Source of the DNA: a virus
IMG/VR virus record: IMGVR_UViG_3300045988_001753
Coordinates: 32,001 to 96,000 of that record
DNA length: 64,000 nucleotides
Reading direction: 5' to 3' (one strand)
In this document: one piece after another, positions 3,129 through 61,247 of the stretch
How positions within the stretch are numbered: the stretch's first letter is position 1
Layout of the letters: the number at the start of each line of letters is the position of its first letter
Position numbers and translations under genes: made by a program
Notes under the pieces: model-generated
The model's input: the letters and a program-made list of their open reading frames with translations, nothing else
Databases searched by the model: none
Told to the model about the DNA's origin: nothing

Positions 3129-6100
3129 ATGAGTTGTTTAATTATAACACCAGAAATTAGAGAATTAGCTAAGAAGTTTCCTAATGAAACAGAGCAATCA
3201 ATACTTAACTTGGTTGGACTGTGGCAGGAAAAGAATAATAAGTCTGTTGAGGATATTCCATTAGGTAGTGAACTCAATGATTTTATTAAGGAGCTGAGAA
3301 GTAGTGAGGCTACTGAACAGCTTGATGAGGCACTTAGCAGTTCTTTTAATACTCCAAGGATTACTTCTGTTGAGGAACAGCAAAAGGTGGACTTACTCTT
3401 TGACCCAAGAACAAGAAGAGATAGAGTGACACTTATTGCAAGATTCTTCAGTAATGAAGTTGATAATGCCTTGCAGGAAATGACTGATTCTTTGAAGAGA
3501 AGAATTGATGATGCCAGTGGTGTAGAGAAGGAAGAATTACAGGCTGAGCTTAATAGCTTGGATAGATTCTCTGCTATAAAGAAGTACACTCCTGCTGGTA
3601 TATTCAAGAGAGTAGCTAACATCTTCAATTCTTATATACAAGATACAGAAGAGGGCAGAATACAGCAAGAACTTAATGCAATCAATTCTATGAGAGGTGC
3701 AGATAAGTTCTCTGATGAGCAGAAATTAGAAGCTGCCAAGAAGAAAGCTGCTTATAAGAATCAGGAGTATAAGAAGATAGTTGATGACCCTTATGTCTAT
3801 AAGGCTCTTGCTGAGGAAGCAAGTACTTTACTTGTAATGACTGAGGGTATTAGGATAGACCCTAACTACATTGCACCTGCTGATGCAAACCTCAATGATG
3901 ATGACCCTGATGGTAACAGTGAGGTAGATAATGAAGCAGAGGATTGGAGACAAGAAGAGGCTTATAAGGATGGATGGATGACTAATTTCAGACAGGTAAG
4001 TTCACATGAGTCTCTGTCACAAGCTGTAAGAAAAGTAATCAGACAAGTACCTAAACTTGACTATAGAGGCAAGTATGAAAAGGATGATTTAGGTTTCACA
4101 AGATACCTTGATGCTGACTATGTTCATGCTACTTTCATTGACAAGTTAAGGAACATGATTAACTCTGATGATATGCTTCCTTTGATGCAGGATTTGCAAA
4201 GAATCAAGCCTTGGGTTAAGCAAGTAACCAAGTTACTTCAAGGTGATGAGACTTTGTTCTCTCAATTCTACCAAGACTTCAGGAAGGACTTTATGCCTTA
4301 CTGGATTCAAAAGAAGAAGATGATGCCTGATGGTACTTTCAAGATGGAAACTATTGCCATCAATAAGCCTGAAGGTGTGTATTACCTCCTTGATGCTTGG
4401 AGAGATAACTATGAGAATGGAGTACAGCTTGATGATGATAGTGTATATGAGAAGAATGGGGAAATAAACAAGGATAATGCAGCTAAAGGTTTACAATGGA
4501 CTGAGACATTGAACAATATGTTCCAGAACCTTGATACAGAATCCAGACTTCAACTCTTAGAGAGAGAAGATGTATGGAATACCATAATGAAGTTACTTCA
4601 TATGTTAGGTATTGATGCCAATCCTTCTGTATTGAAGACTGCATTAACTGATATAAAGACAGCTCCAGGTATCACATTTACTGACCCAATTATGCTTCTT
4701 TTACCACAATTGAATGTTATATTCAGTGGTATTAAGAAAGGTGAAGTCAAGTCTGAGACAAGGGAGGATGGTACTGAGAAGAGAGGAGACCTTATCAATA
4801 CTTTTGGCTCTGCTTACAATATGATTGCAAGCATGATGGCAGAAGTTACTGAGGATGCTATTGAAAGTAGTGTCAGAGAGAATGATAAGTCTTACTATTC
4901 TCATGTTACTCCTAACTACTTAGGTAAACTTATTAAAAATCTCAAGAATGTTATGAATGACAAGGAGAGATTTGAACAGTTTATGCAGACTGAGTTCAAG
5001 GATTATGAGTGGTTCTTTAAGGATGGTCATTGGAGAAATGACTGGCTAAGACAGCTTGCAGAGTCTGATGAATTGAGAAGAGGTCTTAACCATAAAGTAG
5101 TATTGAACTCTGATAAGGTAGATTATACTAATTGGGATGATTTGGATTATACTTTGGCTCTTCTTACAGAATATTGGGGAGACCCTGATTCTGCAAAGTC
5201 AAGTATAAAGTATGCTTGGTATCATGTTCCTATTCTCTCAGATAGCCCTTCTGCTGAGTTTATCAGATTCAGAAAGTACACAACAGGTGATGTACTTGAT
5301 GAAAATGGTAAGAAGAGAACCTATGATGATGTTATTCTTGATAAGTTGGTAGACTTGGTTAATCAAGAGTATGACAGAATTATGCTGGTTAGGGAAAGAG
5401 ATGAGGCTTATCAGAGTGGAGATAAGAGTGTAGAACCTATTGCCAACTATGATATTGTCAGAAAGAAAGATGGGAGTATAAAGAGTATGGGAGGTGCAGA
5501 ATTTAAGTTCCTTCCTGCACTTAACAACCTCAGATATGACAATGGAGAGGCATTCATTGATAGGCTAAGCAGACTTAAATCCAAGGGTACTGGTGCTGAA
5601 CTTAGGAACTTTCTAAGAACTACTCTTAATGACATGATGGAAGATGGTTTTGAACAGACCTATAGAGATTGGATGAGGGTAGGACTTTTGGATGAGCTTC
5701 CTAATGGCAAGTACAAGTATCTTCCTTTTGAGGGTCAGTCCAAGCAGAATGCAATAACTGCAAAGGCACTTATCAAGGCTAAAGATGCCTTAGGTTCATT
5801 GTGGAATACCAATATGGAACTGATGCTTAGAGCCTATAACAATAATAGTGCTTTTGATAGTAGGGAAGCCAATAACCTGATGGAGCAGATTAAGAATTTG
5901 CTGACAGATAAGGCAACAAGAGGTGAGATGGAATTGAAAGATGCTCAGTCAATCTCAAGAAGTCTGTTTGTTAAGAACAATGCTAAGGATGCACTTAGGG
6001 AATACTATTGGAACAGTAAGTTAGCTACTTCACAGATTATCCAGCTTACTACTACTGACCTTGCCTTCTATAAGAACCTTGAGGACTTTCAGAAGAGATA

Positions 6101-9100
6101 TAAGGAGGTTCATGCTCCTGCCCTTAGACTGAATACTAAGGCTACTTATAAAGGTGAGAGAATTGGTAGGGACTGGGAAAGAACCATCTACTTGAAGGAT
6201 GATGAGATAGTATCTTCTGTACTTGAAGACATCAAGACTGTACTTGATGAAAGGGTTAGAAGAAATGAAATGACCAAGATAGACAGAGATAATATCATCA
6301 GCAAGTTTAGAAATGTGAATGTAGCAGATGCTCAGGCATATAGAAGTTTGAGTTCCTATAGGGCAATACTTGGCATGTCAGGTCAGTGGACAGATGATAT
6401 GGAGCAGGCATATAACAACTTCAAGAATGGAGATTGGAATATTAAAGACTTCAATATCATTTGGCAGACTAAGAAGCCTTATGTTTATACACAAGTCAAT
6501 AATAACAGTGGCATTGAAGGTCATACTGGAATTAAGACTCCTGTACAGCATAAGAACTCAGAGTTCCTATTACTTGCTATGCACGAACTAATTGCTGGTC
6601 CTTTAGGAAGGTCAGGTAAGCTGAAAGCCATAAATAAGTTTATGGAGGATAATCAGATTGATGTAGTTCAGTTTGAATCTACTACTAAGGTTGGAAAACA
6701 AGGTGTAATAGATTTGAATGATGTTAATACAGAGGCTGATGTAATCCAAAGACTTAAAGATACCACAGGTATTGGATTTGGTAATGAGAATCCTAATGTA
6801 GTACATAAGGTATCTTATGAAGATTATGGTATTCAGACTGCAACTCCTGAACATGCTATTGATGCAGTTCAGTTAGTAGGTACTCAGATTAGAAAGTTAA
6901 TTACTGCTGACATCTCTGATGACACAATCATTGAGGTTAATGGTAAGAAGATGACTAAGAAAGAGTGGCTTGACCTGTATAATGCTATCAATACAGAGAA
7001 TATTCTTCAAGCATTTGCTGATGTAGATAAGATATTCAAAGACCCAAAGAAGGTAGAGGAAATCTTACTTGAAGAGATAAGAGGTAATCAAAGATATGGT
7101 ATGGATATGATGAGGGCTTGTACTCTTGATGAGAACAATAACTTCAATATACCTCTCTTTGACCCTGTGCAATCTCAAAGAGTACAGACACTTCTTAATA
7201 GTGTAATCAAGAGTAGAATCACTAAACAGAAGATTAGAGGAGGAGCTTTAATTCAGGTGTCTGATTATGGCTTAACTGACCAACTGAGTATTGTATTCAA
7301 AGATAAGAATGGCAATCCTTTGAATTACGAACTTTACAAAAAGAAGTATCCTAATGCTACAAGAGAAAGCTATGAAGAATTTGTCAAGAATGCCCAAAAG
7401 GAAGGTAAGTTGTCTATCATGTATCTTGAGTGCTATATGCCTGCATATAGTAGAGAGTTTTATGAGCCTCTCATGGACCCAAATACTCACCAGCTTGATG
7501 TAACTAAACTTCCTGAGGATTTGAGAAAGTTGATTGGATATAGAGTTCCAACAGAGGATAAGTACTCAATGGCTCCTCTGTATATTAAGGGATTCCTTCC
7601 TCAACAGAATGGTTCTGCAATCATGCTTCCTGCTGAGATTACTACTCTATCAGGTTCTGACTTTGATGTGGATAAGATGTATATCATGTTGCCAGAGTTT
7701 AGAATACTGGATAGGTATAGAATCAAGGATGCTTGGGATGACTTCTATACTGACCCAGCTAATGCTGACATTGTAGAAGAAATTGATAGGAACATAGGAA
7801 TTGCTTTTGAAGACTATCAAAGAAAACACCCTGAGGATGAGCTTGATATAGATGATTATATTGAGTTTGTTCAAGACCAAGGTGTCAGAAAGTACCAGTT
7901 CTCTGAAACTGCAAGGGACAGATTCAAGGAGTGGTTCAAGTCAAGAAAAAAGCAATACTCTCTGGGTAAGGGTAAGATTGTAAAGGTAAAGTATGACTTC
8001 AACAAGTCTCCACAGGAGAATAGTCTTGAGGCAAGAAATAACTTGCTGATAGATATGATGTATGGAGTCCTGACTAATGCAGATACAGCTTCAAAGATTC
8101 TTAACCCAGGTGGTTTTGACTATCAGAAGAAGTCTGCAAGAATAATGACTATTCTCAATGATTCTTATGAGAGTGATTTGGTTAAGGCTCTAAATGAAGG
8201 TGGTGTTAAGTTTAATAAGACTATTAAAAGGGCAGGAAAGGAAATAAAAGCCCCAATATCTTCCTACCTTTTTGACTTGCCATTAGAGTTATCTAATGAG
8301 GAGAGAGAGGAAAGGAAGAAGAAAGGGGAGCCTTTCATAAGTCTTACTGAATTAGCAGAGAAAACAAAGGTCAAAATGGACCCATTATCACCAAGAACTC
8401 AAGTAATGTTACATCAACAGAACATGACTGGTGCTAAGTTGATTGGTATTTATGCCAACCATAATGCAAACCATGCTTTGATGCAACATACTCAGTTGGC
8501 TTTGGATGAAGAAAATGGCTCATTTGTATTGAATGGAAAGAGACTTACATCTCTACATGATATTATGAATGGTGACAAGGAATTTATCTCAAAGAATAAT
8601 GCTGGATTCTTGGCTGCTTCTGTGGACAATGTTAAAGACCCTGTGCTTGCAGCACTTAATCAGAATACTTTCACTGCTGATGCTTCTATGCTTCTTTCAA
8701 GATTAGGTTATAATCCTATTGAGATAGGTCTGCTAATGATGCAGCCTATAGTTCAAGAGATTACTCAGACCTATTTTAGAGAGAGTAGAGAAGGTAAAGG
8801 TAAAGATACCATCATTGATGAAGTATTGGATAAGTATAAGGAGAAGGCTGCTCTTAATAATGACTTGACTTATGATAACTACAAGAATAATAGCTTCTAC
8901 ATTGAAGAGCTTGCAGATAACATAATGCTTGCTAAGGAAGCTGTTACTGACAGGTCTCAGACTTCTGATTTCAGAAAGATTGAGTTCTATCAGAAACAAG
9001 TTGCAGTTGGATATTTGTTCAAGAGAATTATGAACTCTGCTGATGCTTTGGGACAGTTAGTACAGGCTACAAGGTCTGATACCCAAGGAGGTGCTGCTGG

Positions 9101-57524: not shown

Positions 57525-57538
57525 ATTATCTAAATTAG

Positions 57539-57625
57539 TTGCGGAGGGTGGACTCGAACCACCAACACAGTATTACTGCTTCTCAAGGTTATGAGCCTTG
57601 CATGTTTCCATTACACTACCCCACG
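57539..57625 (-). tRNA. tRNA-Met(CAT), initiator-like acceptor end, atypical 20-nt variable arm
   Basis: Acceptor CGTGGGG/CTCCGCA (C1-A72 mismatch) with discriminator A, as in bacterial tRNA-fMet. Anticodon arm CAAGG-CTCATAA-CCTTG. Variable region AGAAGCAGTAATACTGTGTT. T arm GGTGG-TTCGAGT-CCACC. Confidence 0.7.
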
Positions 57626-57786: not shown

Positions 57787-57793
57787 ATTATAG

Positions 57794-57867
57794 AGCCTCC
57801 TGAAGGATTTGAACCCTCTCTTCCTGTTTACAAGACAGGCTTGCTAAACCATTAACACTAAGGAGGC
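57794..57867 (-). tRNA. tRNA-Thr(TGT)
   Basis: Acceptor GCCTCCT/AGGAGGC. Anticodon arm CCTGT-CTTGTAA-ACAGG. T arm GAGGG-TTCAAAT-CCTTC. Confidence 0.85.
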
Positions 57868-57871
57868 ATTG

Positions 57872-57955
57872 TAGTCTAAGAGGGATTTGAACCCTCAATC
57901 CCTAAAGGGCGAGGGATTTTAAGTCCCTTGTGTATTCCAGTTCCACCATTAGACC
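57872..57955 (-). tRNA. tRNA-Leu(TAA)
   Basis: Acceptor GGTCTAA/TTAGACT. Anticodon arm AGGGA-CTTAAAA-TCCCT. Long variable arm CGCCCTTTAGGGATT. T arm GAGGG-TTCAAAT-CCCTC. The 5' end overlaps the HNH gene stop codon. Confidence 0.85.
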
Positions 57956-58416
57956 ATTTTATTTTTCCCTCTGTAATTGTCTGTCAGAGCATGACAATTA
58001 GGACATAAGAGCTGTAAATTACCTATTTCATTATTACTATTATTACCATCTTTGTGATGCAGCTCTAAAGGTATCTTTTGTCCTTGCCATTCGGACAATC
58101 CACATCTCTCACATCTATGTTCTTTTATATTTTCTGAAAGCAATCTTCTCTTTAGATTGTTTGAGTTATATCTTGAAGGATTTACAAGAATCCTACTAAG
58201 AGGGAATTTCTTAACTACTGGAGAATATCTTTCACCAGAGTTCCATCCCTGACCTGTAAAGTGGGAAGTATCTATATTGTATAAATCAATTGCTTGATGT
58301 ATAGTTCTGTAATTCCCTCCTACAGGCTTTATATGCAGGTATCTACATACCTGTGCTATACTAAGACTGTTTCTTATAGCCTCTTCATATACTTCTCTAC
58401 TTCTCAGTTTTGTCAT
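57949..58416 (-). CDS. HNH homing endonuclease
   Basis: 155 aa. C-terminal CERCG...LELHHKDGNNSNNEIGNLQLLCPNCH is the HNH/His-Me finger with flanking Cys pairs. Embedded in the tRNA array. Confidence 0.85.
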   Translation of the reverse strand: MTKLRSREVYEEAIRNSLSIAQVCRYLHIKPVGGNYRTIHQAIDLYNIDTSHFTGQGWNSGERYSPVVKKFPLSRILVNPSRYNSNNLKRRLLSENIKEHRCERCGLSEWQGQKIPLELHHKDGNNSNNEIGNLQLLCPNCHALTDNYRGKNKMV

Positions 58417-60268: not shown

Positions 60269-60297
60269 ATATATTCCTTAGAGACAAGGAATTAGAG

Positions 60298-60370
60298 TGG
60301 GCAAGTAAGGACTTGAACCTTCATTACTACCTTATCAGAGTAGCTTCCTGACCAATTAGAAGACATGCCC
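60298..60370 (-). tRNA. tRNA-Ile(GAT)
   Basis: Acceptor GGGCATG/CTTGCCC (T6-T67 mismatch). Anticodon arm CTACT-CTGATAA-GGTAG. T loop TTCAAGT. Confidence 0.8.
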
Positions 60371-60377
60371 ATTATAG

Positions 60378-60450
60378 CTGAGAAGGCAGGAGTTGAACCC
60401 ACAACTGCTGGTTTTGGAGACCAGTGTTCTACCAATTGAACTACTTCCCA
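60378..60450 (-). tRNA. tRNA-Trp(CCA)
   Basis: Acceptor TGGGAAG/CTTCTCA with discriminator G. Anticodon arm CTGGT-CTCCAAA-ACCAG. T arm GTGGG-TTCAACT-CCTGC. Confidence 0.85.
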
Positions 60451-60459
60451 ATTAATTAG

Positions 60460-60532
60460 CTGTAGGTAGTGGATTTGCACCACTGGTCTCCCCATTAGCA
60501 GTGGGGTGAGATTACTACTTCTCTAACCTACA
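60460..60532 (-). tRNA. atypical type-I tRNA with GCT (Ser AGY) anticodon, identity undetermined
   Basis: 73-nt cloverleaf with all stems perfectly paired: TGTAGGT-TA-GAGA-AGTAGTAA-TCTC-A-CCCCA-CTGCTAA-TGGGG-AGACC-AGTGG-TGCAAAT-CCACT-ACCTACA-G. The variable loop is short (5 nt), the D loop lacks GG, and the T loop is TGC instead of TTC. Confidence 0.6.
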
Positions 60533-60640
60533 AAACACCAAATCATTGATTACTTCTCCTTATTGCACTCAGAGAACTTTCAGAAATGATGGCATCAAGT
60601 ATTGCAAGCTACTTGACTGAACTTCTTGCAAAAGTTCTTG

Positions 60641-60714
60641 CGGGGAAGGTAGGACTCGAACCTACTCTCTTCTGATTAACAGTCAGTAGCTTGTACCATA
60701 TAAGCTCCATCCCC
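60641..60714 (-). tRNA. tRNA-Asn(GTT)
   Basis: Acceptor GGGGATG/CTTCCCC (T6-T67 mismatch) with discriminator G. Anticodon arm ACTGA-CTGTTAA-TCAGA. T arm GTAGG-TTCGAGT-CCTAC. Confidence 0.8.
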
Positions 60715-61037: not shown

Positions 61038-61123
61038 CGGAGAGCAGTGTACTTGAAACACATACCATTACTGGTACAATCTGTTTAGCAGACAGTCCCT
61101 AAGACCTCTTAGGTTTACTCTCC
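61038..61123 (-). tRNA. tRNA-Ser(GCT), canonical type II
   Basis: Acceptor GGAGAGT/GCTCTCC with discriminator G. Anticodon arm ACTGT-CTGCTAA-ACAGA. Long variable arm with stem TACCA/TGGTA. T loop TTCAAGT. Confidence 0.85.
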
Positions 61124-61162
61124 ATTTTCCTTCACCAATATGTCAAAGAACACCTATTATTG

Positions 61163-61247
61163 CGGAGAGATGAGGTCCCGACCCCCAAGCATTTTACTGC
61201 TCAATCTGTTTTCAAGACAGTTCCCAGTCCCACTGAGTTACCTCTCC
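61163..61247 (-). tRNA. tRNA-Ser(TGA), type II
   Basis: Acceptor GGAGAGG/TCTCTCC with discriminator G. Anticodon arm ACTGT-CTTGAAA-ACAGA. Long variable arm with stem GAGCA/TGCTT. Unusual T loop GTCGGGA. Confidence 0.8.

What the first reader, a model, noticed from the sequence alone, without database searches (positions are those of the whole stretch)
60460..60532. Perfect cloverleaf tRNA with Ser anticodon GCU but type-I architecture and altered D/T loops
**What is seen**
- The array already has a canonical type-II tRNA-Ser(GCU) with a long variable arm at 61038-61123.
- This second GCU tRNA has all four stems perfectly paired but only a 5-nt variable loop (AGACC).
- Its D loop (AGTAGTAA) lacks the G18-G19 pair.
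- Its T loop reads TGCAAAT instead of TTCRANT. Both partners of the usual D-loop/T-loop tertiary contacts are therefore changed together.

**Why it matters**
Bacterial SerRS depends on the long variable arm, so this RNA is unlikely to be serylated. Possible roles:
- mischarging or recoding of AGY codons;
- a decoy for host anticodon nucleases or tRNA-targeting defences;
- some other non-translational tRNA-like function.

The perfect stems argue against a decaying pseudogene.
Basis: partly seen in the sequence, partly recalled or inferred. Interest (0 to 1): 0.65.

Follow-up and report, generated by a model that had tools for sequence, protein, structure and literature searches.

The report
tRNA-shaped RNA, not a serine tRNA
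The odd "serine tRNA" in this gut crAss-like phage is one variant of a conserved tRNA-shaped RNA whose anticodon loop changes freely between related phages, and which is always joined to a previously uncatalogued 108-base structured RNA, so it is probably a non-decoding RNA module rather than a translator of serine codons.

Summary
**Observation: confirmed.** A perfect 73-nt cloverleaf lies on the minus strand at 60460-60532. It has anticodon GCU, a 5-nt variable loop, D loop AGUAGUAA and T loop UGCAAAU. It is the only such outlier among about 29 tRNAs in a crAss-like (Steigviridae/Asinivirinae) tRNA array.

**It is very unlikely to be a serine tRNA.**
- About 90 related loci carry the homologue, with 46 distinct unit sequences.
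- The stems are kept by compensatory changes and the T arm is invariant.
- The anticodon arm has 21 variants. CAU is commonest; GCU occurs only in the window and one relative; many loops lack U33 or are 6 or 8 nt long.
- Ordinary tRNAs in the same loci show the opposite pattern: variable bodies and fixed anticodon loops.
- AGY codons align with Ser exactly as TCN codons do, so there is no recoding.

**The D/T-loop change is a natural variant.** G18-U19 paired with G55-C56 also occurs in tRNA-Cys, tRNA-His and initiator tRNA-Met of Patescibacteria and DPANN archaea, and in other phage tRNAs.

**It belongs to a larger unit.**
- The tRNA-like never occurs without a 108-nt upstream leader of four covarying helices.
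- UGCAA sits in every hairpin loop, including the T loop.
- Rfam has no match for the leader.

**Best reading:** a non-decoding tRNA-shaped module of a composite phage RNA. Its function is unproven.

The parts
60460..60532 (-). 73-nt tRNA-shaped RNA, the GCU-loop allele. Anticodon loop 60495-60501 (anticodon 60497-60499); D loop 60512-60519; T loop 60473-60479; discriminator G at 60460.
   Evidence: ARAGORN. Rfam tRNA 59.3 bits. Minimum-free-energy fold is the cloverleaf. Covariation over 23 distinct homologues: 95% of cells paired, 6 pairs with double changes, 0 of 500 shuffles as good.
60533..60640 (-). About 108-nt conserved structured leader that always accompanies the tRNA-like. It lies between the 3' end of tRNA-Asn and position +1 of the tRNA-like.
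   Evidence: Present in all 36 tRNA-like loci found through the T arm alone. Four helices, 15 of 26 pairs with double changes, 96.7% of cells paired, 0 of 500 shuffles as good. The covariance model scores 136 bits here. No Rfam match.
60619..60637 (-). Leader hairpin H1: GAACUUU[UGCAA]GAAGUUC.
   Evidence: Compensatory variants AAACUUU/GAAGUUU and GAAUCUU/GAGAUUC, and GGUAACU/AGUUACU in cr126_1.
60594..60617 (-). Leader hairpin H2: GUCAAGUA[GCUUGCAA]UACUUGAU.
   Evidence: Compensatory variants CAAGCA/UGCUUG and CAAGUG/CACUUG, and UUAAGUA/UGCUUAA in cr126_1.
60536..60591 (-). Leader domain 3. Outer helix CAUCA (60587-60591) with UGGUG (60536-60540). It encloses invariant internal loops (UUUCUGAAAG and GUAAUCAAUGAUU) and the inner hairpin UUCUCU[GAGUGCAAUAA]GGAGAA (60554-60576).
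   Evidence: The outer helix covaries: CAUCA/UGAUG, CCUUGG/UCAAGG, CCUCU/AG(A)AGG. The inner helix covaries: UUCUC/GAGAA, AUUCU/AGAAU, ACUCC/GGAGU.
60640..60714 (-). tRNA-Asn(GUU), the upstream neighbour. Its 3' end bounds the leader.
   Evidence: In crAss001 the same Asn-Trp slot holds a CDS (Gp6); in cr85_1 it is empty.
60377..60450 (-). tRNA-Trp(CCA), the downstream neighbour, about 9 nt after the discriminator of the tRNA-like.
61038..61123 (-). Type II tRNA-Ser(GCU). This is the likely real phage-encoded reader of AGY codons.
   Evidence: Folds with a long extra arm. Aligns with the annotated tRNA-Ser of crAss001 and tikkala. Not called by ARAGORN or Rfam.

Best explanation
**What it is**
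The RNA at 60460-60532 is not a serine tRNA. It is the GCU-loop allele of a conserved tRNA-shaped module found in a subset of human-gut crAss-like phages (Asinivirinae).

**Origin (inferred from resemblance)**
- The module looks derived from an initiator-like tRNA-Met(CAU).
- That ancestor carried the natural elbow variant G18-U19 with G55-C56.

**Organisation**
- The module forms the 3' half of a unit of about 181 nt.
- The 5' half is a 108-nt leader with four covarying helices and UGCAA in every hairpin loop.

**Proposed mechanism (inferred, not shown)**
1. The tRNA array is transcribed as a precursor.
2. 3' processing of tRNA-Asn and RNase P cleavage at position +1 of the tRNA-like release the leader RNA and the 73-nt tRNA-shaped RNA.
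3. Selection acts on the tRNA shape (acceptor stem, D arm, and above all the T-arm sequence).
4. That shape serves as a processing or stability handle, and/or as a binding partner of the leader or of a tRNA-binding factor.
5. Selection does not act on what the anticodon reads. GCU is therefore an incidental loop variant, and AGY codons are read as Ser by host tRNA-Ser and by the phage's type II tRNA-Ser(GCU).

**Shown**
- Family membership.
- Covariation in the stems.
- Variability of the anticodon loop.
- Strict linkage of the tRNA-like to the leader.
- No AGY recoding.

**Inferred**
- Transcription, the cleavage sites and the molecular role.
For: **Family**
- About 90 loci from IMG/VR, public metagenomes and GenBank phage cr126_1 carry the unit, with 46 distinct unit sequences.

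**Anticodon loop is not conserved**
- There are 21 distinct anticodon arms.
- Counts per loop: CUCAUAA 36, AGUAUAG 21, CGCAUGA 5, CCCAUAA 3, UUGAGAU 3. CUGCUAA occurs only in the window and L004.
- U33 has been replaced by G, C or A in several lineages, and some loops are 6 or 8 nt long.

**Mean pairwise difference by region**
- Anticodon loop: 0.29-0.32.
- Leader: 0.04-0.06.
- T arm: 0-0.01.

**The cloverleaf is under selection**
- 95% of cells paired.
- 6 pairs with double changes.
- 0 of 500 shuffles as good.

**Internal control**
- 1,685 tRNA calls from the same 94 loci were clustered by body sequence.
- Most ordinary tRNA clusters hold 1-2 anticodon loops across as many as 21 bodies. The largest tRNA-Met cluster has 21 bodies and 1 loop.
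- The tRNA-like cluster has 20 bodies and at least 10 loops.

**Conservation relative to neighbours**
- Unit: mean pairwise difference 0.062.
- tRNA-Asn slot: 0.312.
- tRNA-Trp slot: 0.270.

**Linkage to the leader**
- The leader is present in 36 of 36 tRNA-like loci found through the T arm alone.
- It has four helices with 15 of 26 covarying pairs.
- UGCAA is in all four hairpin loops in all clades.
- The leader can occur without the tRNA-like (L057/L078, L060). The reverse was never seen.

**No recoding**
- AGY behaves as Ser.

**The elbow variant occurs in real tRNAs**
-.

**Whole-unit fold**
- The minimum-free-energy fold of the unit reproduces every helix.
Against: - There are no expression, processing or charging data for any member.
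- The window allele itself has a textbook anticodon loop (U33, A37) and perfect stems, so it could in principle still decode.
- About half of all loci keep the canonical CUCAUAA loop. The family may therefore include working tRNA-Met genes, and the other loops could be recent losses.
- The strong sequence conservation of the D loop, and the maintained anticodon stem, go beyond what RNase P or 3' processing is known to need. This points to a role not yet identified.
- The contigs come largely from one large gut dataset, and some loci are the same assembly held in two collections. The number of independent events is therefore smaller than the number of loci.
Confidence: 0.55

Rival explanations
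1. It is a working decoding tRNA that reads AGY. It would be charged either with Ser despite lacking the long arm, or more plausibly by ArgRS, because it carries the bacterial arginine identity set (A20, C35, U36, G73). That would give low-level AGY-to-Arg mistranslation or recoding.
For: - Canonical 7-nt loop with U33 and A37, and 21 perfect stem pairs.
- An identical copy sits in a second genome whose flanks are only 84-98% identical, 93% across the segment holding the unit.
- The G18-U19 / G55-C56 elbow occurs in real tRNAs.
- The bacterial Arg determinants are A/G73, A20, C35 and U/G36 (PMC9976931). All four are present in the window allele.
Against: - 204 AGY codons align with Ser at the same rate as TCN codons, and Arg is not among the six commonest aligned residues.
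- The allele occurs in 2, perhaps 3, of about 90 loci, while close relatives carry CAU, GAG or non-tRNA loops in the same body.
- Ordinary tRNAs of these phages never vary their anticodon loops in this way.
- A type II tRNA-Ser(GCU) is present.
- Serine identity needs the long arm.
Confidence: 0.1
2. It is a decoy or sponge for a host tRNA-targeting defence, such as an anticodon nuclease or an acceptor-end-modifying toxin. The conserved tRNA shape would attract the enzyme, and the fast-changing loop would track the specificities of different hosts.
For: - The shape is conserved while the loop is highly variable.
- Phage tRNAs are thought to evade or neutralise anticodon nucleases through anticodon-loop changes (PMC10264068; related titles PMC11464382 and PMC11555353).
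- This phage group carries large tRNA arrays, and crAss001 is annotated with polynucleotide kinase/phosphatase genes. In T4 such genes belong to tRNA repair (my own knowledge).
Against: - No nuclease or host is known for these phages.
- Several loops (AGUAUAG, CGCAUGA, and the 6-nt loops) resemble no tRNA anticodon loop, so they would be poor mimics.
- The most conserved parts are the T arm and the leader, which a loop-directed arms race does not explain.
- Loop diversity (0.29) is about the same as that of the flanks (0.27-0.31), so relaxed constraint is enough to explain it.
Confidence: 0.15
3. It is a dying tRNA gene, a relic of a third tRNA(CAU). It would be kept only because it lies inside a polycistronic array, and it would have no function of its own.
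For: - GCU is a rare allele.
- One relative has indels in the D arm, the loop and the T stem (L108).
- One contig has deleted the tRNA-like (L060).
- One lineage has replaced it with a short hairpin (L057/L078).
- It is absent from crAss001, tikkala, cr85_1 and bajarodcaudo virus 1.
Against: - The stems are kept by compensatory double changes.
- The T arm is invariant apart from one substitution each in the loop and the stem, seen in rare variants.
- The unit is 4-5 times more conserved than the neighbouring bona fide tRNA genes.
- A neutral relic would decay evenly, not only in the loop.
Confidence: 0.07

Closest known systems
Bacterial type II tRNA-Ser(GCU)
   Same: GCU anticodon, discriminator G73, and a location in a phage tRNA array.
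   Different: - No long variable arm (5 nt). The long arm is the main serine determinant (PMC9976931, PMC7609411).
- The anticodon is not conserved among homologues.
- A separate type II tRNA-Ser(GCU) exists at 61038-61123.
Natural tRNAs with the elbow variant G18-U19 / G55-C56, found here: tRNA-Cys(GCA), tRNA-His and initiator-type tRNA-Met of Patescibacteria (CPR) and DPANN archaea, and scattered phage tRNAs
   Same: - Identical D loop AGUAGUAA and T loop UGCAAAU.
- Among 649 distinct tRNAs in the fetched loci, all 36 with a UGC T loop lack GG in the D loop.
   Different: - Those RNAs keep isotype-specific anticodons and identity elements.
- They are not joined to the leader.
- I found no paper describing this variant, so calling it a 'class' rests on my own scans.
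Bacterial initiator tRNA-fMet
   Same: The majority allele has:
- a 1x72 mismatch (A1xA72, or C1xA72 in L036);
- G2-C71, C3-G70 and A73;
- A11-U24;
- loop CUCAUAA;
- variable loop AGACC;
- a T loop that differs from UUCAAAU only at position 55.

It matches elbow-variant initiators such as L155 and L160 at nearly all unpaired positions.
   Different: - The anticodon stem is CCCCA/UGGGG, not the three G29-31:C39-41 pairs.
- The window allele has U1-A72, U3-A70, G73 and GCU.
- The array has its own C1xA72 tRNA-Met at 57538-57625.
- The list of initiator hallmarks is from my own knowledge.
Phage tRNAs with anticodon-loop changes that evade host anticodon nucleases (van den Berg et al. 2023, PMC10264068; T5 tRNA-Lys against PARIS; T5 tRNA-Tyr against retron effectors)
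   Same: A phage-encoded tRNA-shaped RNA whose anticodon loop differs from the norm while the body is kept.
   Different: - Those tRNAs keep their anticodon and still decode.
- Here the anticodon itself changes, and U33 is often lost.
tRNA-like 3' modules that direct RNase P processing of an upstream non-coding RNA (MALAT1-mascRNA), and the small stable RNAs of the T4 tRNA cluster (both from my own knowledge)
   Same: A structured non-coding RNA immediately followed by a tRNA-shaped element that does not need to decode, inside or next to tRNA genes.
   Different: - No processing data exist here.
- The D arm and anticodon stem are conserved beyond what RNase P needs.
- There is no sequence relationship.
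Bacterial Y RNAs (YrlA) with a tRNA-like domain, bound by Ro60/TROVE proteins
   Same: - A structured RNA with a tRNA mimic.
- crAss001 (Gp96) and one unit-bearing contig (L036) encode a TROVE protein.
   Different: - In YrlA the tRNA-like domain is internal and the RNA ends form the Ro-binding stem (my own knowledge). Here a complete cloverleaf sits at the 3' end.
- TROVE and the unit do not co-occur: crAss001 has TROVE but no unit, and cr126_1 has the unit but no TROVE match.
- There is no Rfam Y RNA match.
Large phage-associated structured RNAs found next to tRNA genes (GOLLD, ROOL; my own knowledge)
   Same: Phage-encoded RNAs with strong covariation, located next to tRNAs, of unknown function.
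   Different: - Those RNAs are 400-800 nt and are in Rfam.
- This leader is 108 nt and has no Rfam match.

Membership tests
Bacterial tRNA-Ser (type II) | Long variable arm (more than 10 nt, forming a stem-loop) | tested here: not met
   The variable loop is AGACC, 5 nt.
Bacterial tRNA-Ser (type II) | Serine anticodon (GCU or NGA) kept among orthologues | tested here: not met
   GCU occurs in the window and L004 only. There are 21 anticodon-arm variants, mostly CAU.
Bacterial tRNA-Ser (type II) | Discriminator G73 | tested here: met
   G at 60460. Most homologues have A73.
Bacterial tRNA-Ser (type II) | Serylation by SerRS | not testable with these tools
   Needs an aminoacylation assay.
Decoding (elongator) tRNA | Cloverleaf supported by covariation | tested here: met
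   95% of cells paired, 6 pairs with double changes, 0 of 500 shuffles as good. Rfam 59.3 bits.
Decoding (elongator) tRNA | Anticodon loop (7 nt, U33, purine 37) and anticodon conserved among orthologues | tested here: not met
   Loop diversity is 0.29-0.32. U33 is replaced by G, C or A in several lineages, and there are 6-nt and 8-nt loops. Most ordinary tRNA clusters in the same loci have 1-2 loops. The window allele itself does have U33 and A37.
Decoding (elongator) tRNA | Canonical elbow: G18-G19 with U54-U55-C56 | tested here: not met
   It has G18-U19 with U54-G55-C56. The same paired variant occurs in real tRNAs, so this failure is not disqualifying.
Decoding (elongator) tRNA | The codon it reads is decoded accordingly in the phage proteome | tested here: inconclusive
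   AGY behaves as Ser. This is what host tRNA-Ser and the type II phage tRNA-Ser would give anyway. It excludes reassignment but not disuse.
Bacterial initiator tRNA-fMet | CAU anticodon | tested here: not met
   The window has GCU. The majority of homologues have CAU.
Bacterial initiator tRNA-fMet | Mismatch at positions 1:72 | tested here: not met
   The window has U1-A72. 20 of 23 distinct homologues have A1xA72 or C1xA72.
Bacterial initiator tRNA-fMet | Three consecutive G:C pairs, 29-31 with 39-41 | tested here: not met
   The stem is CCCCA/UGGGG, or CUCCA/UGGAG in variants.
Bacterial initiator tRNA-fMet | Purine 11 paired with pyrimidine 24 | tested here: met
   A11-U24 is invariant in 23 of 23 sequences.
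tRNAs with the G18-U19 / G55-C56 elbow variant (defined by my scans) | D loop ending in GUAA together with a UGCAAAU-type T loop | tested here: met
   Identical loops occur in 69 tRNAs of GTDB genomes: Cys 53, His 10, Met 4, Ile 1, Glu 1. None of the 36 tRNAs with a UGC T loop has GG in the D loop.
tRNA-like processing module of an upstream non-coding RNA (mascRNA type) | Obligate linkage to an upstream structured RNA | tested here: met
   The leader is present in 36 of 36 loci found through the T arm.
tRNA-like processing module of an upstream non-coding RNA (mascRNA type) | RNase P cleavage at the junction releases both RNAs | not testable with these tools
   Needs end-mapping or an in vitro RNase P assay.
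Any Rfam 15 family (tested for the leader) | Match to a curated covariance model | tested here: not met
   No match at E up to 10 in a 221-nt search or E up to 1 in an 8-kb search, other than tRNA itself.
Y RNA / YrlA | Co-occurrence with a Ro60/TROVE gene and a terminal Ro-binding stem | tested here: not met
   TROVE is present in crAss001 (no unit) and L036 (unit). It is not detected in cr126_1 (unit) or bajarodcaudo virus 1. The architecture differs.

The most novel reading that the evidence does not exclude
The 181-nt unit (three UGCAA-loop hairpins plus a tRNA-shaped domain whose T loop carries the same UGCAA) would be a new class of phage non-coding RNA.

**Sequence basis**
- The loops contain the palindrome UGCA. 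In H1 and H2 the palindrome is the longer UUGCAA.
- These loops could dock on one another, within one molecule or between molecules. That would build a compact or multimeric particle.
- In that particle the tRNA-shaped domain would present an acceptor end and a free, rapidly evolving anticodon-like loop.

**Possible use**
- To capture or divert a host tRNA-binding enzyme or a tRNA-targeting immune nuclease.
Probability: 0.2. Interest if true: 0.75.

Novelty: new variant of a known kind. Interest (0 to 1): 0.55.

Why it matters
- **Annotation.** Annotating phage tRNA arrays by anticodon alone would record this RNA as a second tRNA-Ser, and in relatives as tRNA-Met, Leu, Lys, Ile or His. That would feed false entries into codon-usage and recoding analyses of some of the most abundant viruses of the human gut.
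- **A candidate new RNA.** The evidence points to a conserved, strongly covarying, uncatalogued RNA of about 181 nt: a structured leader plus a tRNA mimic with a free anticodon loop. It is a tractable candidate for a non-translational use of the tRNA shape by phages.
- **A point about tRNA structure.** The paired change G19-to-U and U55-to-G recurs in genuine tRNAs of Patescibacteria, DPANN archaea and phages. This matters for tRNA structure and for tRNA gene finders.

Tried and rejected
- **Rfam on the leader.** Nothing matched.
- **One wasted scan.** A viral-contig scan used a wrong spacer length and found nothing. It was repeated correctly.
- **AGY recoding.** Rejected.
- **Leader copies elsewhere.** The covariance model found none in crAss001 (first 50 kb), in the tikkala and cr85_1 arrays, in bajarodcaudo virus 1, or elsewhere in the window.
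- **UGCAA hairpins elsewhere in the window.** No enrichment beyond the unit.
- **A specifier-like pairing between the leader and the anticodon loop.** Rejected by reading the alignments. The leader stays the same while the loop changes.
- **Adenine-specific mutagenesis of the diversity-generating-retroelement type.** Rejected. Changes hit C32, U33 and C34 as often as the A positions.
- **Promoter or terminator inside the unit.** No sigma-70-type site. No Bacteroides TAnnTTTG motif by eye.
- **A partner protein by presence/absence.** I compared the window and cr126_1 against crAss001 and bajarodcaudo virus 1. The only real gene with the right pattern is an HNH homing endonuclease at 57949-58416; the other hit, 60292-60495, is a spurious frame across tRNA genes.
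- **Ro60/TROVE link.** No co-occurrence.
- **crAss001 Gp6, the occupant of the same slot.** No PHROG match.
- **Catalogue of 10,006 viral candidate structured RNAs (PMC10690425).** No supplement is held, so I could not check whether the motif is already listed anonymously.
- **Literature search for the U19/G55 elbow variant.** Nothing specific.
- **Phage attachment-site mimic.** Considered and rejected. The element is a complete cloverleaf plus leader, in phages of a group not known to integrate (my own knowledge).
Full report
**1. The observation**

The window is part of a crAss-like phage genome (Steigviridae, Asinivirinae).
- Its tRNA array is syntenic with those of Bacteroides phage crAss001, Kehishuvirus 'tikkala' and uncultured phage cr85_1. 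Uncultured phage cr126_1 carries a rearranged version of the array.
- Its closest GenBank relative in the structural genes is bajarodcaudo virus 1, at 83.5% identity.

On the minus strand at 60460-60532:
- ARAGORN calls tRNA-Ser(gct).
- Rfam tRNA scores 59.3 bits against a gathering score of 29.
- The minimum-free-energy fold is a cloverleaf.

- four perfectly paired stems;
- loop CUGCUAA;
- variable loop AGACC;
- D loop AGUAGUAA;
- T loop UGCAAAU;
- discriminator G73.

Every other tRNA called in the array has GG in the D loop and a UUC T loop. Two details need correcting.
- G18 is present. Only G19 (to U) and U55 (to G) depart from the norm.
- The type II tRNA with a GCU anticodon at 61038-61123 is real. 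It has a long extra arm and aligns with the annotated tRNA-Ser of crAss001 and tikkala. Neither ARAGORN nor Rfam calls it.

**2. It belongs to a family, and the family does not keep its anticodon**

The slot between tRNA-Trp and tRNA-Asn holds a CDS in crAss001 and tikkala, and nothing in cr85_1. The element is therefore not part of the conserved core of the array.

Three searches gave about 90 loci with 46 distinct sequences:
- BLAST found one unannotated GenBank homologue, in cr126_1.
- The T arm was used to scan IMG/VR.
- A leader motif was used to scan IMG/VR and public metagenomes.

Some loci are the same assembly held in two collections.

Across 23 distinct, ungapped 73-nt sequences:
- 95% of cells in the cloverleaf are paired;
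- six pairs show compensatory double changes, three in the acceptor stem, one in the D stem and two in the anticodon stem;
- 0 of 500 shuffles did as well.

The anticodon arm nevertheless has 21 variants:

| Loop | Loci |
|---|---|
| CUCAUAA (CAU) | 36 |
| AGUAUAG | 21 |
| CGCAUGA | 5 |
| CCCAUAA | 3 |
| UUGAGAU (GAG) | 3 |
| CUGCUAA (GCU) | 2 (window and L004) |

- There is also one degraded GCU relative, L108.
- Other variants have G, C or A at position 33, or loops of 6 or 8 nt.

Mean pairwise difference by region:

| Region | Difference |
|---|---|
| Anticodon loop | 0.29-0.32 |
| Leader | 0.04-0.06 |
| T arm | 0-0.01 |

*A control from the same data.* I clustered 1,685 tRNA calls from the 94 family loci by body sequence, with the loop masked.
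- Most ordinary tRNA clusters hold one or two loops across as many as 21 bodies. The largest tRNA-Met cluster has 21 bodies and one loop.
- The tRNA-like cluster has 20 bodies and at least 10 loops.

*Conservation relative to neighbours.*
- The unit as a whole is 4-5 times more conserved than the tRNA-Asn and tRNA-Trp slots on either side: 0.062 against 0.312 and 0.270.
- Loop diversity is about the same as flank diversity. Relaxed constraint on the loop, with purifying selection on everything else, is enough to explain the pattern.
- The number of independent loop changes is too small to claim more, for example selective retention of A35-U36.

**3. No recoding**

I aligned 8,227 codons of the window's ORFs to crAss001, which lacks the element.
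- The 204 AGY codons pair with Ser at 44%. TCN codons pair with Ser at 49%.
- The substitution spectrum of AGY is the serine one (N, A, T, G, D). Arg is not among the six commonest partners.

The window allele does carry the bacterial arginine identity set: A20, C35, U36 and G73 (PMC9976931).
- Low-level arginylation therefore cannot be excluded.
- Nothing in the proteome suggests it.

**4. The D/T-loop change is a natural, compensated variant**

Among 649 distinct tRNAs in all fetched loci, 36 have a UGC T loop, and none of these has GG in the D loop.

I scanned 185,579 GTDB species genomes for AGTAGTAA, then 28-34 nt, then GGTGCAAATCC. This gave 94 hits.
- 69 are tRNAs: Cys(GCA) 53, His 10, Met(CAU) 4, Ile 1, Glu 1.
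- Most come from Patescibacteria and DPANN archaea.

Two of the Met tRNAs have the acceptor end and the G:C-rich anticodon stem of initiators:
- L155, with A1xA72;
- L160, with C1xA72.

The majority allele of the crAss family matches these initiators at almost all unpaired positions and at the acceptor end:
- a 1x72 mismatch;
- G2-C71, C3-G70 and A73.

It lacks the three G:C pairs of the anticodon stem.

The altered elbow therefore argues neither for nor against tRNA function. It suggests descent from an initiator-like tRNA-Met that already had this variant.

**5. The leader**

In all 36 loci found through the T arm alone, the tRNA-like is preceded by the same stretch of about 108 nt. The reverse does not hold:
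- in L057/L078 the leader is followed by a 44-nt hairpin that keeps only the acceptor-stem sequence;
- in L060 a deletion removes the tRNA-like.

The leader folds into four helices:

| Helix | Sequence | Coordinates |
|---|---|---|
| H1 | GAACUUU[UGCAA]GAAGUUC | 60619-60637 |
| H2 | GUCAAGUA[GCUUGCAA]UACUUGAU | 60594-60617 |
| Outer helix | CAUCA / UGGUG | 60587-60591 with 60536-60540 |
| Inner hairpin | UUCUCU[GAGUGCAAUAA]GGAGAA | 60554-60576 |

- The inner hairpin is flanked by invariant internal loops.
- Across 29 distinct leaders from three clades, 15 of 26 pairs show double changes, 96.7% of cells are paired, and 0 of 500 shuffles did as well. Sliding the partners drops pairing to 42-52%.
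- The minimum-free-energy fold of the whole unit reproduces all helices and the cloverleaf.
- UGCAA is present in all three leader hairpin loops in every clade, and in the T loop wherever the tRNA-like is present. Such hairpins are not enriched elsewhere in the window.
- Rfam 15 has no match.
- A covariance model of the leader finds it only in the window, cr126_1 and L057. It is absent from crAss001 (first 50 kb), from the tikkala and cr85_1 arrays, and from bajarodcaudo virus 1.

**6. Mechanism**

*Shown:*
- a composite, strongly constrained RNA-level structure;
- a tRNA-shaped 3' domain whose shape and T-arm sequence are under selection, while its anticodon loop is not;
- no change in how AGY is read.

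*Inferred:*
- the unit is transcribed with the array;
- tRNA 3' processing at tRNA-Asn and RNase P cleavage at position +1 of the tRNA-like release a leader RNA and a 73-nt tRNA-shaped RNA;
- the tRNA shape serves as a processing or stability handle, and/or as a partner of the leader or of a tRNA-binding factor.

*Speculation.* The shared UGCAA loops contain the palindrome UGCA (UUGCAA in H1 and H2). Loop-loop docking is therefore possible. There is no covariation to test it, because the loops never vary.

*Rivals.*
- A working AGY-reading tRNA, about 0.1.
- A decoy for tRNA-targeting defence, about 0.15. Phage tRNAs are proposed to counter anticodon nucleases (PMC10264068), and crAss001 is annotated with polynucleotide kinase/phosphatase genes.
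- A neutral relic, about 0.07.

**7. Searches for a partner led nowhere**

- A presence/absence comparison gave only an HNH homing endonuclease and one spurious frame across tRNA genes.
- The TROVE/Ro60 protein of crAss001 recurs in one unit-bearing contig but does not co-vary with the unit.
- crAss001 Gp6, which occupies the same slot, has no PHROG match.

**8. Novelty**

- I found no description of this unit, nor of the U19/G55 elbow variant.
- Large anonymous catalogues of candidate structured RNAs from IMG/VR exist (PMC10690425) and may contain it. I could not check.
- I class it as a new variant of a known kind: a tRNA mimic joined to a structured phage RNA.
Its headline reading as a type I serine tRNA is not supported. 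Its fallback reading, a non-translational tRNA-like RNA, is the one the evidence supports.

Noticed in passing
window 1-64000; also crAss001 (L117) and bajarodcaudo virus 1 (L212): Extreme CpG depletion. The window has 59 CG dinucleotides in 64 kb, observed/expected 0.03, while GC is at 0.99. crAss001 is at 0.03 and bajarodcaudo virus 1 at 0.08. No CGN arginine codon occurs among 8,227 aligned codons, and the array carries only tRNA-Arg(UCU).
   Followed up: partly
window 57538-57625 (-): The initiator-type tRNA-Met (C1xA72) is 88 nt long and has an extra arm, which is unusual for an initiator. The same long form is annotated in crAss001 (t23) and in tikkala as 'tRNA-fMet'.
   Followed up: no
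window 57793-57868, 61038-61123 and 61162-61247 (-): Three array tRNAs are missed by default ARAGORN. Thr(UGU) is found by Rfam and by a lowered ARAGORN threshold. Ser(UGA) is found only at the lowered threshold. Type II Ser(GCU) is found by neither tool.
   Followed up: partly
GTDB genome loci L119-L211: tRNA-Cys(GCA), tRNA-His and some initiator-type tRNA-Met of Patescibacteria (CPR) and DPANN archaea carry D loop AGUAGUAA and T loop UGCAAAU, that is G18-U19 with G55-C56. This is a recurrent paired elbow variant for which I found no description.
   Followed up: partly
L043 (IMGVR_UViG_3300014204_000170), 3800-7700: An unrelated phage array has several tRNAs with the same elbow variant (Arg, Asp, Cys, and a related His). 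It also has 75-76-nt tRNAs with leucine anticodons, that is type I bodies carrying anticodons of a type II isotype.
   Followed up: no
L004 4369-4755 (-): ARAGORN calls a tmRNA (tag AKSYRMTPALMAA) about 4 kb upstream of the array in the one relative that shares the GCU allele. It lies next to additional Trp and Arg tRNAs.
   Followed up: no
L214 46870-48288 (crAss001 Gp96); L036 37-1443: crAss001 and one unit-bearing contig encode a TROVE (Ro60-like) protein. crAss001 also has polynucleotide kinase/phosphatase genes (Gp60, Gp61) and a HicA mRNase (Gp55). This hints at RNA-repair or Y-RNA-type biology in this phage group. A gap of about 900 nt with no annotated gene lies beside Gp96.
   Followed up: partly
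window 57949-58416 (-); L053, L063 and L115 upstream of the leader: HNH homing endonuclease genes sit inside the tRNA array. In three relatives one lies directly upstream of the leader in place of tRNA-Asn. Flanking tRNA genes exist as very different alleles (about 30% difference) around a nearly constant unit, so the array is a recombination mosaic.
   Followed up: partly
L212 20068-24155 (bajarodcaudo virus 1): The major capsid protein gene of the closest GenBank relative is annotated in four pieces, interrupted by intron-associated endonuclease genes.
   Followed up: no
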